IMG/VR virus record: IMGVR_UViG_2690316148_000006
DNA length: 5,372 nucleotides
Origin: a virus
Taxonomy: Duplodnaviria > Heunggongvirae > Uroviricota > Caudoviricetes
Strand: one strand, 5' to 3'
The notes under the pieces were generated by a model. The model ran no database searches. It was not told where the DNA came from and saw only the letters and a program-made list of their open reading frames with translations. The position numbers and the translations under genes were made by a program. Positions 103 to 2,839 of this stretch are shown here, in pieces (the first letter of the stretch is position 1; each line of letters starts with the position of its first letter).

Positions 103-125
103 GCCCCGGTTATCCGGGGCTTTTT
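103..125 (+). terminator. Intrinsic-terminator-like hairpin between the V-like gene and G
   Basis: Perfect 7-bp GC-rich inverted repeat GCCCCGG (103..109) / CCGGGGC (114..120) with a 4-nt loop TTAT, followed directly by TTTTT (121..125). It lies in the 58-nt gap between the upstream stop (81..83) and the G start (142). Confidence 0.5.
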
Positions 126-141
126 GCATCCGGAGAACATG

Positions 142-528
142 ATGTTTCTGAAACAGGATACGTTTAATTATGAAAAACAGTCCGTGGTGCTCAGTGAGCT
201 GTCCGGGCTGCAGAGAATTGAATATCTGACGTTTGTTCAGCAGCGAACGGCAAAGTTTGATGCACAGGAGGGAGAACTGCCGGAGGCTGAACGACAGATT
301 GCTTTTCTGCGTATGGGAATGGATATCAATGCCTGGCTGGTTTCCCGCTCACTGTGGAATGCTGAGCAGTCTCAGGATGTTGAGACGCTTTGCGCATCCA
401 TTATGACAACATGGTCGTATGATGCGCTGGGCGCGGGGGCGGAGAGGGTTCTGTCGCTGAGCGGTATGGGGACCATTGAGAATGCCGGGGATGATGATCA
501 TGAGGCGCTGACGCCGGAAAAGTCCTGA
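142..528 (+). CDS. G: Tail assembly chaperone (lambda gpG-like)
   Basis: ORF ending at TGA 526..528. The protein begins MFLKQDTFNYEKQSVVLSELSGLQRIEYL, resembling lambda gpG (MFLK...TLSELSALQRIEHL, from memory). GGAG at 132..135 gives a 6-nt spacer to the ATG at 142. The ATG at 139 and the TTG at 124 used by the ORF track are less likely starts; TTG 124 overlaps the terminator T-run. Confidence 0.85.
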   Translation: MFLKQDTFNYEKQSVVLSELSGLQRIEYLTFVQQRTAKFDAQEGELPEAERQIAFLRMGMDINAWLVSRSLWNAEQSQDVETLCASIMTTWSYDALGAGAERVLSLSGMGTIENAGDDDHEALTPEKS

Positions 529-866
529 CGCGGGAAATGCAGTTTGTCATGCGGCTTGCCCGGGAGTTCCGGCGGGCAGACTGGCGGCGGATGCTGTCGG
601 ATATGTCGGCCACTGAGCTTGGTGAGTGGGGCGATTATTTCCGGATGCAGAGCTTCAGTGATGTGTGGATGGATGCGCAGTTTGCCTCGCTGAAGGCATT
701 GATCGTGAGAATGGTGTCCGGCAGCAGCGATGCTGCGGTGGCTGATTTCAGCCTTTTACCGGAAGAGAACGGGATACCGGAGCGAACGGACGAAGAACTG
801 ATGCATCTTGGGGAAGGTATTTCCGGAGGTGTGCGTTATGGACCAGATAGCCAACCTGGTCATTGA
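142..866 (+). CDS. T: Tail assembly chaperone GT fusion made by a programmed -1 ribosomal frameshift near the 3' end of G (lambda gpGT-like)
   Basis: The -1 frame relative to G is closed by TGA at 501..503, opens at 504 and runs to TGA at 864..866. The only window for the shift is therefore 504..526, and it contains the A-rich heptamer GGAAAAG at 516..522. The arrangement matches the conserved G/GT frameshift of lambda-like tail gene clusters. The T-frame portion alone has no plausible independent start; ATG 537 is downstream of the slip site. Confidence 0.7.
516..522 (+). promoter_or_regulatory. Candidate -1 frameshift slippery heptamer G_GAA_AAG (G to GT)
   Basis: Zero-frame codons GAA(517..519) AAG(520..522); -1 codons GGA(516..518) AAA(519..521). 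This is a one-base variant of the lambda heptamer G_GGA_AAG and the only slippery-looking site in the 504..526 window where both frames are open. Confidence 0.55.
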
Positions 867-2839
867 TTTGGGGATTGATGCGGCAGAGTTTAAAAATGAA
901 ATTCCCCGTATCAAAAACCTTCTGAATGGTGCAGCCAGCGATGCAGAACGGTCTTCTGCCCGTATGCAGCGTTTTATGGAGCGTCAGACTCAGGCGGCCC
1001 GGCAGACAATGCAGGCGGCTTCTTCGGCTGCAACAGCAGCATCAGCCCATGCGCAGACGGGTTTGTTCCACCTCACGGGCCATGCGTTCATGAGCCNNNN
1101 NNNNNNNNNNNNNNNNNNNNNNNNNNNNNNNNNNNNNNNNNNNNNNNNNNNNNNNNNNNNNNNNNNNNNNNNNNNNNNNNNNNNNNNNNNNNNNNNNNNN
1201 NNNNNNNNNNNNNNNNNNNNNNNNNNNNNNNNNNNNNNNNNNNNNNNNNNNNNNNNNNNNNNNNNNNNNNNNNNNNNNNNNNNNNNNNNNNNNNNNNNNN
1301 NNNNNNNNNNNNNNNNNNNNNNNNNNNNNNNNNNNNNNNNNNNNNNNNNNNNNNNNNNNNNNNNNNNNNNNNNNNNNNNNNNNNNNNNNNNNNNNNNNNN
1401 NNNNNNNNNNNNNNNNNNNNNNNNGAGGAACAGGCCACCCGGCAGAAAGCGGCGTTTATCCGCCAGCTTAAAGAGCAGGCAACCCGCCAGAATCTGTCGT
1501 CTTCTGAGTTGCTTCGCGCCAGGGCGGCTCAGCTGGGGGTAAGCAGTGCTGCAGAAGTGTATATCCGCAAAATGGAGCGGGCAGGAAAAGCCACACATTC
1601 GCTGGGGCTGAAAAGTGCGGCAGCCCGGCGGGAGCTGGGGGTGTTAATCAGTCAGATGGCGCGCGGCAATTTTGGTGCGCTGAGGGGATCCGGGATAACG
1701 CTGGCTAACCGTGCCGGATGGACAGGCGCACTGATGTCGCCGAAAGGCATGATGACTGGCGGCGTTATTGGCGGACTTGTCGCGGCGGTCCTGGGTCTGG
1801 GTAAAGCCTGGCATGACGGCCGGAAGGAGGGCGAGGAATTTAACCGTCAGCTGGCGCTGACGGGACATTATGCCGGTGTCACTGTCGGGCAGTTGTGGAA
1901 ACTCAGCCGGGCCATATCCGGGAATGGTATCACGCAACATGCGGCAGCCGGTGCGCTGGCACAGGTGGTGGGCAGTGGGGCATTTCATGGAAACGATATT
2001 GGTATGGTGGCGAAAGCTGCCGCACAGATGGAGCGATCGGTTGGCCAGTCGGTCAGCGATACCATAAATCAGTTTAAGCGGCTGAAGGATGATCCTGTAA
2101 ATGCCGCGAAGGCGCTGGACAATGCGCTGCATTTTTTGACTGCCACTCAGCTTGAGCAGATACGCGTCCTTGGGGAGCAGGGGCGGTCCAGTGATGCGGC
2201 CCGGATCGCCATGTCTGCGCTGGCAGAGGAAACCGGTAAACGCACATCTGATATTGATAATAATCTCAATGCGCTGGGTAGTACGCTGCAAACCTTGTCT
2301 GACTGGTGGAAGCAGTTCTGGGATGCGGCCATGAATATTGGTCGTGAAGACTCGCTGGATGCGCAGATTGATGCGTTACAGGAAAAAATTCAGCGCGCGA
2401 AAAAATATCCGTGGACAAACGCCTCCACACAGGTGGAGTACGATCAGCAGCGTCTTAACGATCTTCAGGAGAAAAAACGCCGGAAGGATTTGCAGGATGC
2501 AAAAGCGCAGGCAGAACGGAATTACCAGGAGCAACAGAAACGCCGGAATGCTGAAAATGCCGCGCTGAACCGGATGAATGAAACGGAANNNNNNNNNNNN
2601 NNNNNNNNNNNNNNNNNNNNNNNNNNNNNNNNNNNNNNNNNNNNNNNNNNCAGAAACGCCGGAATGCTGAAAATGCCGCGCTGAACCGGATGAATGAAAC
2701 GGAAGCTGCACGACATCAGCGTGAAAATGAACGTTACGAAAAAGCCATTAAGAAAAATACACGGGCAACCCGTAATGATGAGGCCACCCGGTTATTGCTG
2801 CTGCCAGACAGTCAGCAGGCATTGCCACTGAAAGGATGA
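838..2839 (+). CDS. H: Tail length tape measure protein (lambda gpH-like), N-terminal and central part; interrupted by two N runs and ending at a frame break
   Basis: ATG at 838 with GGAGGT at 826..831 (6-nt spacer). The N-terminus MDQIANLVIDLGIDAAEF resembles lambda gpH (MAEPVGDLVVDLSLDAARF, from memory). After the first N run the protein continues in the +0 phase from 1425 with a Gly/Ala-rich hydrophobic segment (GALRGSGITLANRAGWTGALMSPKGMMTGGVIGGLVAAVLGLG) and coiled-coil-like K/R/E/Q-rich sequence typical of tape measure proteins. After the second N run it continues in phase 2 to TGA at 2837..2839. Phase changes coincide with the N runs. Confidence 0.7.
1097..1424. other. Run of 328 N (assembly gap or masked sequence) inside the tape measure gene
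   Basis: Contiguous N characters. The tape measure frame is phase 1 before the run and phase 0 after it, so either the length is not exact or the hidden sequence contains a frame-changing feature. Confidence 0.95.
2535..2704 (+). repeat. Exact 54-bp direct repeat (2535..2588 and 2651..2704) immediately flanking the second N run
   Basis: CAGAAACGCCGGAATGCTGAAAATGCCGCGCTGAACCGGATGAATGAAACGGAA occurs identically on both sides of the N run. Copy 1 ends at the last base before the Ns and copy 2 starts at the first base after them. Both copies encode QKRRNAENAALNRMNETE in the tape measure reading frame. Confidence 0.8.
2589..2650. other. Run of 62 N (assembly gap or masked sequence) inside the tape measure gene, flanked by identical 54-bp sequences
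   Basis: Contiguous N characters. The frame goes from phase 0 before to phase 2 after; it becomes consistent if the Ns plus one repeat copy (116 nt) are removed. Confidence 0.95.

What the first reader, a model, noticed from the sequence alone, without database searches (positions are those of the whole stretch)
504..528. G to GT programmed -1 frameshift appears to use a non-canonical heptamer GGAAAAG instead of lambda's GGGAAAG
The T frame is closed by TGA at 501..503 and G ends at TGA 526..528, so a -1 shift must occur within 504..526. The only slippery candidate there is G_GAA_AAG at 516..522. The A-site Lys tRNA can re-pair AAG to AAA as in lambda, but the P-site codon is GAA (Glu) rather than GGA (Gly), so re-pairing to GGA would need a G:U-type mismatch at the middle position. 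Frameshift efficiency, and hence the G:GT ratio that matters for tail assembly, could differ from lambda, or the shift could be a single-tRNA slip on the A run. The predicted fusion junction is ...EALTP-(G/E)-K-VLTREMQFVMRLAREF...
Basis: partly seen in the sequence, partly recalled or inferred. Interest (0 to 1): 0.5.

Follow-up and report, generated by a model that had tools for sequence, protein, structure and literature searches.

The report
Common GGAAAAG tail-chaperone frameshift site
This is the ordinary G/GT tail-assembly-chaperone frameshift site of a widespread E. coli lambdoid prophage; its "odd" slippery heptamer GGAAAAG is real, is the commonest form in this phage protein family, and is already annotated as the shift site in phage phi80.

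Summary
The T frame is closed by TGA 501-503 and G ends at TGA 526-528. The only slippery candidate in the 22-nt overlap is G_GAA_AAG at 516-522, in G phase.

It is not a base-call error. The same G-T segment (>=95% identity) occurs in 1848 of 5426 complete E. coli genomes. All 80 close IMG/VR relatives fetched keep the heptamer, as do phages mEp460, Tritos and Ayreon.

It is not unusual either. Among 39 non-redundant G/T loci from Enterobacterales, 29 carry G_GAA_AAG at the homologous position and only 3 carry lambda's G_GGA_AAG. The phi80 GenBank record already labels GGAAAAG "slippery sequence for -1 translational frameshift".

Base 1 of the heptamer is G in 37 of 39 loci, although the codon it ends varies (CCG, GCG, CTG, TTG, ACG, GTG). 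Base 7 is G in 36 of 39. This nucleotide-level selection favours a two-tRNA slip: tRNA-Glu GAA to GGA with a central G.U pair, and tRNA-Lys AAG to AAA.

I found no conserved downstream RNA structure. An upstream Shine-Dalgarno-like GAGG is weak support at best.

The predicted junction is ...EALTPEK-VLTREMQF, with Glu rather than Gly. The frameshift efficiency is unmeasured. Verdict: real, already known, modest interest.

The parts
142..528 (+). Gene G, the tail assembly chaperone (lambda gpG homologue). An alternative start is ATG 139. The stop is TGA 526-528.
   Evidence: Pfam PF06894 Phage_TAC_2, E = 2.7e-40. RefSeq annotates the 99.9%-identical copy as 'phage tail assembly chaperone G'. Translation.
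501..503 (+). TGA that closes the -1 (T) frame upstream. It sets the 5' limit of the window in which the shift must occur.
502..505 (+). Weak Shine-Dalgarno-like GAGG, 10 nt 5' of the heptamer. It is only a candidate stimulator and is not established.
   Evidence: Anti-SD duplex energy is -5.6 kcal/mol, at the 19th percentile of control positions in the same gene. Across 39 loci the mean is -4.5 against -3.2 kcal/mol, Wilcoxon p = 0.024.
516..522 (+). Slippery heptamer G_GAA_AAG, in G phase. This is the inferred site of the -1 shift.
   Evidence: It is in phase and is the only candidate in the overlap. It is conserved in 29 of 39 non-redundant homologous loci and in all 80 close relatives. The identical heptamer is annotated as the slippery sequence in phi80.
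522..866 (+). T segment read in the -1 frame after the shift. The first codon is GTC 522-524 and the stop is 864-866. It is the C-terminal half of the GT fusion (...PEK-VLTREMQF...).
   Evidence: Pfam PF06223 Phage_tail_T, E = 2.1e-14 on the conceptual fusion. Protein conservation in this frame begins right at the heptamer.
838..1096 (+). Start of gene H (tape measure protein), which overlaps the end of T. It gives context for the V-G-T-H order.
   Evidence: Annotation of the 99.9%-identical E. coli prophage and of mEp460.

Best explanation
The window carries the V-G-T-H tail region of a lambdoid E. coli prophage of the mEp460/cdtI type. Most ribosomes translate G to its stop at 526-528.

A minority slip back one base on G_GAA_AAG (516-522). 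At that point peptidyl-tRNA-Glu sits on GAA in the P site and Lys-tRNA sits on AAG in the A site. After the slip, tRNA-Lys (anticodon UUU) pairs fully with AAA. tRNA-Glu (anticodon UUC) pairs with GGA through C36-G and U34-A, with a central U35.G wobble. Translation then continues in the T frame from GTC 522. The product is a roughly 241-aa G-T fusion with the junction ...EALTPEK-VLTREMQF...

By analogy with lambda, G and GT coat the tape measure protein, and the T part recruits the major tail protein.

What is shown here: the ORF geometry, the homology, and the conservation and phase of the heptamer. What is inferred: that the shift happens, that it is a two-tRNA slip, and that it needs no strong RNA stimulator.
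For: - Geometry and phase of the two frames and the heptamer.
- G matches PF06894 and T matches PF06223. The gene order V-G-T-H-M-L matches lambda.
- Homologous loci in phi80, Gifsy-1, Gifsy-2, Fels-1 and mEp043 share G_GAA_AAG at the same place, although their T proteins are only 43-65% identical to this one.
- The phi80 record annotates the heptamer and a joined G-T CDS.
- In 39 clusters the heptamers are GGAAAAG 29, GGGAAAG 3 and other G/A_GNA_AAR forms 7. A_AAA_AAG, G_GGA_AAG and G_GAA_AAG occupy the same slot in otherwise alike junctions.
- Nucleotide-level selection is visible. Base 1 is G in 37 of 39 loci across six different preceding codons, whereas nearby third-codon positions have no base above about 40%. 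Base 7 is G in 36 of 39 loci, against 36.5% AAG among Lys codons in the same genes.
- The ATG at 537 is not conserved in relatives, where Leu replaces Met, and its GGGA lies only 1 nt upstream. Independent initiation of T is therefore not the conserved route.
- GAA to GGA re-pairing through G:U has been proposed for tail-chaperone shift motifs in actinophages (PMC10885494).
Against: - There is no direct evidence of a GT protein from this heptamer, neither in my searches of the held (open-access) library nor in this work.
- In a reconstituted E. coli system AUG_GAA_AAG was called unfavourable for slippage and gave mainly 0-frame product (PMC6924986).
- The A_AAG tetramer without a stimulator is barely above background in vivo, 0.147% against 0.112% (PMC4066793).
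- I found no conserved downstream stimulator.
- The survey was seeded with peptide patterns from an alignment in which 5 of 6 sequences were GGAAAAG-type. The 29-of-39 share may therefore overstate its frequency in the family at large.
Confidence: 0.8

Rival explanations
1. The shift is a single-tRNA slip. Only the A-site tRNA-Lys re-pairs (A_AAG to AAA). The P-site tRNA-Glu contributes nothing specific, so the functional element is the tetramer A_AAG and not a heptamer.
For: - A_AAG is the shiftiest tetramer in E. coli, because the single tRNA-Lys pairs poorly with AAG (PMC4066793).
- The family tolerates several P-site codons: GAA, GGA, GCA, GUA and AAA.
Against: - Heptamer base 1 is G in 37 of 39 loci although the codon it ends changes between five amino acids. 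Base 2 is G in 39 of 39. This is unexplained if P-site re-pairing is irrelevant.
- A_AAG alone needs a strong pseudoknot to reach a few per cent, and no such structure is conserved here.
Confidence: 0.15
2. There is no programmed frameshift in this phage. T is made on its own from ATG 537, as RefSeq and GenBank annotate it (a 109-aa 'tail assembly protein T'). This could perhaps happen by reinitiation after the G stop, 8 nt upstream.
For: An ATG at 537 opens a 109-aa ORF. The mEp460, Tritos and RefSeq records annotate T as a separate CDS.
Against: - The ATG is absent from Gifsy-1, Gifsy-2, Fels-1, phi80 and lambda, where that codon is Leu.
- The only purine-rich stretch, GGGA, lies 1 nt from the ATG.
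- The T frame is conserved as protein from the heptamer onward, upstream of the ATG (KVLxRE...).
- The -1 overlap and heptamer are conserved in all 39 clusters.
- Separate T annotation is also used for lambda itself, where GT is known to be the product (PMC5009743).
Confidence: 0.04
3. It is an artefact. Position 517 is a sequencing or assembly error and the true site is the canonical GGGAAAG.
For: None found. GGAAAAG and GGGAAAG do differ by a single transition.
Against: The same heptamer is present in independent phage isolates, in 80 of 80 IMG/VR relatives and in 29 diverged clusters. The same G-T segment occurs at >=95% identity in 1848 complete E. coli genomes.
Confidence: 0.005

Closest known systems
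Phage lambda G/GT programmed -1 frameshift (G_GGA_AAG; Levin, Hendrix and Casjens 1993; Xu, Hendrix and Duda 2004, 2013, 2014, as summarised in PMC5009743)
   Same: - The proteins are homologous (PF06894 and PF06223).
- The gene order is the same, V-G-T-H.
- T has the same -1 overlap at the 3' end of G.
- The A-site codon is AAG and the heptamer starts with G_G.
- The shift site lies a few codons before the G stop.
- No conserved downstream structure was found.
   Different: Heptamer base 3 is A, not G. The P-site tRNA is therefore tRNA-Glu re-pairing to GGA with a central G.U, rather than tRNA-Gly re-pairing to GGG. The overlap is 22 nt rather than 61 nt. The G stop lies 3 nt after the heptamer rather than 15 nt. 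T is 37% identical to lambda T over the aligned segment.
Phage phi80 gene G-T (GenBank FN582354; joined CDS and misc_feature 'slippery sequence for -1 translational frameshift')
   Same: The heptamer GGAAAAG is identical, in the same phase and at the homologous position.
   Different: The T protein is only 43% identical. The G stop lies 15 nt downstream, not 3 nt. There is no SD-like element within 6-17 nt upstream.
Phages mEp460, cdtI, Tritos and Ayreon, and the E. coli CFSAN029787 prophage
   Same: The DNA is 96-99.9% identical over G-T and the junction sequence is identical.
   Different: Essentially nothing. None of the four records whose annotation I inspected (mEp460, Tritos, Ayreon, the CFSAN029787 prophage) annotates the frameshift: T is either given as a separate CDS from ATG 537 or truncated.
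E. coli dnaX and IS3/IS911-type -1 frameshift signals (A_AAA_AAG or A_AAG plus an upstream SD and a downstream hairpin or pseudoknot)
   Same: They use the shifty AAG Lys codon read by the single E. coli tRNA-Lys. A weak GAGG sits 10 nt upstream, at dnaX-like spacing.
   Different: There is no conserved downstream hairpin or pseudoknot, and the SD-like element is weak and not general. The expected efficiency is a few per cent or less, not about 50%.
Red clover necrotic mosaic virus G_GAU_UUU shift site (recalled from memory, not checked here)
   Same: It is a non-canonical G_GAN heptamer in which the P-site tRNA must re-pair to GGA with a central G.U.
   Different: It is a eukaryotic plant RNA virus with a different A-site codon, and it depends on a downstream stimulatory structure.

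Membership tests
Lambda-type G/GT tail assembly chaperone with programmed -1 frameshift | A gpG-family chaperone gene lies between the major tail gene and the tape measure gene. | tested here: met
   PF06894, E = 2.7e-40. The V-G-T-H order is seen in the near-identical annotated prophage and in mEp460.
Lambda-type G/GT tail assembly chaperone with programmed -1 frameshift | A T-domain ORF lies in the -1 frame, overlaps the 3' end of G, and has no conserved start of its own. | tested here: met
   PF06223, E = 2.1e-14. The -1 frame is open from 504. ATG 537 is not conserved in relatives.
Lambda-type G/GT tail assembly chaperone with programmed -1 frameshift | A conserved slippery sequence lies in G phase within the overlap. 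| tested here: met
   G_GAA_AAG at 516-522 is conserved in 29 of 39 clusters, and all 39 carry a G/A_GNA_AAR heptamer.
Lambda-type G/GT tail assembly chaperone with programmed -1 frameshift | A GT fusion protein is made at a few per cent of G and is required for tail assembly. | not testable with these tools
   This needs a Western blot, mass spectrometry or genetics. My searches of the held library found no paper reporting it for a GGAAAAG-type phage.
Canonical X_XXY_YYZ tandem-slippage heptamer | Bases 1-3 are identical, so the P-site tRNA re-pairs with at most a third-position mismatch. | tested here: not met
   Bases 1-3 are G, G, A. Re-pairing GAA to GGA puts a G.U pair at the middle position (PMC6924986).
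Canonical X_XXY_YYZ tandem-slippage heptamer | Bases 4-6 are identical, so the A-site tRNA can re-pair (AAG to AAA). | tested here: met
   A_AAG at 519-522.
Stimulator-dependent A_AAG sites (IS3, dnaX type) | A downstream hairpin or pseudoknot lies 5-9 nt from the site. | tested here: not met
   - Fold of 523-620: z = -1.0.
- Per-locus folds are not exceptional.
- RNAalifold finds no consensus helix in the first ~60 nt after the heptamer; its only helix is 4 invariant pairs at alignment columns 68-80.
- The candidate helix is 64.5% paired against 63.8% in shuffles.
- There is no Rfam match.
Stimulator-dependent A_AAG sites (IS3, dnaX type) | An upstream Shine-Dalgarno-like element lies about 10-14 nt 5' of the site. 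| tested here: inconclusive
   GAGG at 502-505 has 10-nt spacing but is weak (19th percentile of controls). The family-wide enrichment is marginal, p = 0.024.

The most novel reading that the evidence does not exclude
G_GAA_AAG is not just a tolerated degenerate copy of lambda's site. It is a tuned variant in which both slipping tRNAs (tRNA-Glu and tRNA-Lys) carry mnm5s2U34. The G:GT ratio of this very large prophage family would then be set lower than lambda's, and would be more sensitive to the host's tRNA-thiolation and sulfur status. That pathway is the one already shown to modulate lambda's G:GT ratio (PMC3296357). The site's dominance over GGGAAAG in Enterobacterales would then reflect selection for that set-point or that host coupling.
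Probability: 0.2. Interest if true: 0.45.

Novelty: already known. Interest (0 to 1): 0.25.

Why it matters
In practice this is an annotation issue. None of the four records of this phage type whose annotation I inspected (mEp460, Tritos, Ayreon and the RefSeq copy in E. coli CFSAN029787) annotates the frameshift: T is called as a separate or truncated gene. Frameshift finders restricted to X_XXY_YYZ will miss the site, although it is the commonest form in this family.

Scientifically there is a modest puzzle. A heptamer that reconstituted-system work used as its "unfavourable" sequence is strongly conserved as a natural shift site with no evident stimulator. Measuring its in vivo efficiency would test how much P-site mispairing (a central G.U) a bacterial ribosome tolerates. 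It would also show whether these phages run at a different G:GT ratio from lambda's roughly 30:1.

Tried and rejected
- Downstream stimulatory structure. A single-sequence fold, 39 per-locus folds with shuffles, RNAalifold and pair counting on the recurrent GCCAGNG/CUGGCG helix gave no support.
- Rfam scan of 1-1096 at E <= 1. It returned only a chance snoRNA hit.
- Upstream SD-like stimulator. The effect is marginal across the family and not significant for this window, so I kept it only as a candidate.
- Transcriptional slippage. I rejected this on established knowledge, because a run of four A is far shorter than the runs that RNA polymerase slips on.
- Sequencing error. Rejected.
- Second GGAAAAG at 1584-1590. 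It is phased GGA_AAA_G inside the tape-measure ORF and is not relevant.
- Literature. Searches for GGAAAAG or 'G GAA AAG' with frameshift, slippery or tail found no paper on this heptamer in phage tail genes. They found only the in vitro study PMC6924986. Xu et al. 2004 and 2013 are not held, so I could not check whether they list this heptamer. The PRFect supplement has no relevant entry.
- First IMG/VR scan with the single T protein. It returned only near-identical copies. They were useful for checking invariance but not for sampling diversity.

Full report
**1. What is in the window**

The sequence and ORF list show a lambda-like tail gene block.
- A terminator-like hairpin lies at 103-120.
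- It is followed by a 128-129-codon ORF from ATG 139/142 to TGA 526-528.
- An ORF in the -1 frame is open from 504, after TGA 501-503, to the stop at 864-866.
- A long ORF starts at 838.

Pfam assigns the first ORF to PF06894 (lambda tail assembly chaperone G, E = 2.7e-40). It assigns the -1 frame segment to PF06223 (minor tail protein T, E = 2.1e-14).

The region is 99.9% identical to a prophage of E. coli CFSAN029787. That prophage is annotated portal ... major capsid ... tail tube - chaperone G - protein T - tape measure - M - L - K - I - J. The region is also about 96.6% identical to phages mEp460, cdtI, Tritos and Ayreon.

**2. The observation**

In G phase the end of G reads GAG GCG CTG ACG CCG GAA AAG TCC TGA. 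The overlap in which a -1 shift must occur is 22 nt (504-525). The only heptamer there with a re-pairable A-site codon is G_GAA_AAG at 516-522.

The heptamer as a bare word is not improbable: there are 2 copies in the window against 0.7 expected. The other copy, at 1584, is phased GGA_AAA_G inside the tape-measure ORF. The evidence that the site at 516-522 is meaningful comes from its placement and conservation.

**3. It is not an error**

The junction is identical in mEp460, Tritos and Ayreon and in 80 of 80 close relatives from IMG/VR. A >=95%-identical G-T segment is present in 1848 of 5426 complete E. coli genomes.

**4. It recurs in distant relatives and is already annotated**

Gifsy-1, Gifsy-2 and Fels-1 of Salmonella, and phi80, all carry G_GAA_AAG in G phase at the homologous position. 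Their T proteins are only 43-65% identical to this one. Phage mEp043 carries it too.

The phi80 record FN582354 carries a joined 'gpG-T' CDS and a misc_feature, 'slippery sequence for -1 translational frameshift'. Its coordinates are exactly GGAAAAG. The Gifsy records describe T as made 'by translational frameshifting'.

**5. Survey**

I scanned one genome per bacterial species with a T-domain alignment. This gave 79 loci. Together with the phage loci they reduce to 39 clusters at >=90% nucleotide identity.

Heptamers at the G/T overlap:

| Heptamer | Clusters | Where |
|---|---|---|
| GGAAAAG | 29 | Escherichia/Shigella, Citrobacter, Kosakonia, Leclercia, Serratia, Kluyvera, Proteus, Providencia, Atlantibacter, Klebsiella, Enterobacter, Yokenella, Trabulsiella, Phytobacter, Sodalis, Pluralibacter and others |
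| GGGAAAG | 3 | lambda group, E. albertii, Edwardsiella |
| AGAAAAG | 2 | Morganella |
| GGTAAAG | 2 | Pantoea |
| GGCAAAA | 2 | Kluyvera genomosp. 1, Ewingella |
| GGGAAAA | 1 | Providencia rustigianii |

Named phages add two more points. VT1-Sakai and Stx1 phages carry A_AAA_AAG. Phage 21, PhiR12_1 and an Stx2a phage carry G_GGA_AAG.

In junctions of the same architecture (heptamer, five codons...AGC TGA), three different heptamers occupy the same slot: G_GAA_AAG, G_GGA_AAG and A_AAA_AAG. They therefore behave as interchangeable solutions.

One caveat applies. The scan patterns came from an alignment dominated by GGAAAAG-type sequences, so the 29-of-39 share may be inflated. The qualitative conclusion that the heptamer is common and widespread does not depend on the exact share.

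**6. Selection acts on the nucleotides**

The tail of G around the site is poorly conserved, but the heptamer is sharply conserved.
- Base 1 is G in 37 of 39 clusters, base 2 is G in 39 of 39, and base 3 is A in 31 of 39.
- Base 7 is G in 36 of 39. Bases 4-6 were part of my search criterion and do not count as evidence.
- The third-codon positions at -3, -6 and -9 show no base above about 40%.

Base 1 is the third base of a codon that varies among CCG, GCG, CTG, TTG, ACG and GTG, which encode five different amino acids. It stays G although the background use of these G-ending codons in the same genes is only 29-57%. AAG makes up 36.5% of Lys codons in these genes but is used in 36 of 39 sites.

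These counts are not corrected for phylogeny. The repeated replacement of the preceding amino acid while G is kept is hard to explain other than by selection on the mRNA.

**7. Mechanism**

The constraint on base 1 is what a tandem slip predicts. After the shift, C36 of the P-site tRNA still needs a G. For GAA to GGA the remaining contacts are U34-A and a central U35.G. A central G.U is the mildest possible mismatch, and the P site is not proof-read as the A site is (established knowledge).

A pure A-site slip does not explain base 1. In E. coli the A_AAG tetramer alone is barely above background without a strong stimulator, 0.147% against 0.112%. It reaches 5.6% only with the IS3 pseudoknot (PMC4066793).

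PRFect's authors independently noted that the tRNA reading GAA can re-pair with GGA if G:U is allowed. They saw this in tail-chaperone shift motifs of actinophages (PMC10885494).

Against high efficiency: Peng et al. used AUG_GAA_AAG as the 'unfavourable', 'less slippery' mRNA and obtained mainly 0-frame product (PMC6924986). My inference is therefore that the efficiency is lower than, or at most similar to, lambda's roughly 4% (G:GT about 30:1; PMC5009743; PMC3296357). It has not been measured.

**8. Stimulators**

Downstream I found nothing.
- The fold of 523-620 is unremarkable, z = -1.0.
- The per-locus folds are not exceptional.
- RNAalifold on 39 aligned junctions finds no helix in the first ~60 nt after the heptamer; the only predicted helix is 4 invariant pairs at columns 68-80, with no covariation.
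- The one recurrent hairpin (GCCAGNG/CUGGCG) is paired in 64.5% of cells against 63.8% in shuffles.
- There is no Rfam match.

Upstream, the window has GAGG at 502-505, 10 nt from the heptamer. That is the spacing at which an SD-like element stimulates dnaX frameshifting. However, its predicted anti-SD duplex (-5.6 kcal/mol) sits only at the 19th percentile of control positions in the same gene. Across the family the enrichment is marginal: -4.5 against -3.2 kcal/mol, Wilcoxon p = 0.024. The phi80 clade has none.

The strongest SD-like elements accompany the poorest P-site re-pairing. Pantoea G_GUA_AAG has GGGGAGGA 9 nt upstream. This hints at compensation but does not prove it.

**9. Rivals**

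- Independent translation of T from ATG 537, as annotated in RefSeq and most phage records, is not the conserved route. That codon is Leu in Gifsy, Fels-1, phi80 and lambda. The nearest purine-rich stretch is 1 nt from the ATG. T-frame protein conservation (KVLxRE...) starts upstream of it, at the heptamer. Some free T by reinitiation cannot be excluded for this particular phage.
- Sequencing error is excluded (section 3).
- Transcriptional slippage on four A is implausible.

**10. Product**

GAA and AAG are decoded in frame 0 in every plausible model, so the junction is ...E-A-L-T-P-E-K-V-L-T-R-E-M-Q-F... The residue is Glu, not Gly. The fusion is about 241 aa: 127 from G starting at ATG 142, plus 114 from T.

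**11. Comparison and novelty**

Functionally and by homology this is a member of the lambda G/GT programmed-frameshift family. It meets all the sequence-level criteria except the strict X_XXY_YYZ pattern.

The heptamer variant itself is already annotated in phi80. It is implicit in the Gifsy annotations. It is present in about a third of complete E. coli genomes.

My literature searches of the held (open-access) library found no measurement of its efficiency and no explicit discussion of its dominance. Xu et al. 2004 could not be read.

I rate the finding as already known and of modest interest. The residual question is how a heptamer treated as poorly slippery in vitro serves as the preferred natural site. 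A related possibility is an inference only. Both tRNAs at this site are MnmA/MnmE substrates. tRNA-thiolation status, which is known to shift lambda's G:GT ratio, could therefore matter even more here.

Noticed in passing
window 103-125 (+): A GC-rich hairpin (GCCCCGG-TTAT-CCGGGGC) followed by TTTTT lies between the end of the major tail gene V and the start of G. mEp460 and Ayreon annotate it as a rho-independent terminator. A partial terminator here would lower G/T/H expression relative to the major tail protein.
   Followed up: partly
window 1097-1424 and about 2620-2680: Runs of N mask parts of the tape-measure gene H. The reading frame of H differs between the unmasked segments (838 is in frame 1, 1509 in frame 0, 2836 in frame 1). 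The window is also 57 nt longer between G and M than the 99.9%-identical prophage in L004. The masks therefore may not preserve length, or H differs in length.
   Followed up: no
L136, L137, L138, L155 (Pantoea prophages), heptamer at 786-792 of each locus: The G/T junction uses G_GUA_AAG, where the P-site tRNA-Val would re-pair very poorly. A strong Shine-Dalgarno-like GGGGAGGA lies 9 nt upstream (-10.9 kcal/mol, stronger than every control window in the same gene). This may be compensation by an rRNA-mRNA stimulator. Sodalis (L135) has GGAGGTGG 13 nt upstream of G_GAA_AAG.
   Followed up: partly
L098, L100, L102-L104, L109, L112-L114, L124, L156, L157 (heptamer at 795-801): In Morganella, Proteus, Providencia, Ewingella and one Kluyvera prophage the G stop codon (TAG or TAA) follows the heptamer directly. 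This group includes the weakest-looking heptamers (A_GAA_AAG, G_GCA_AAA, G_GGA_AAA). Elsewhere the stop lies 3 or 15 nt away. An adjacent stop might act as a pause element.
   Followed up: no
Offsets -14 to -12 relative to the heptamer; window 502-504: A GAR (Glu) codon five codons upstream of the GAA is nearly invariant across the family, including lambda: G in 36 of 39 loci and A in 35 of 39. The rest of the G tail is variable. Whether this reflects a protein constraint or a contribution to frameshifting is unknown.
   Followed up: no
L141-L147, L149-L153, L161, L163-L166: Identical lambda G-T sequence turns up on short, low-coverage contigs of unrelated genomes, including Pseudomonas, Shewanella, Oceanobacillus, Kitasatospora, Chromatium, Paenibacillus and Enterococcus. 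This is almost certainly lambda DNA contamination of those assemblies.
   Followed up: no
L169 and L174 (VT1-Sakai and Stx1 phages): These lambda-like G/T junctions carry the dnaX-type heptamer A_AAA_AAG (TCA AAA AAG) at the position homologous to G_GGA_AAG and G_GAA_AAG. The family therefore has at least three interchangeable strong or moderate heptamers.
   Followed up: partly
window 537-866; L001, L002, L003, L004 annotations: Public records of this phage type annotate T inconsistently: as a separate CDS from ATG 537 (mEp460, Tritos, RefSeq) or as a shorter 264-nt CDS (Ayreon). None gives a joined G-T product. This looks like a systematic annotation gap for GGAAAAG-type sites.
   Followed up: partly
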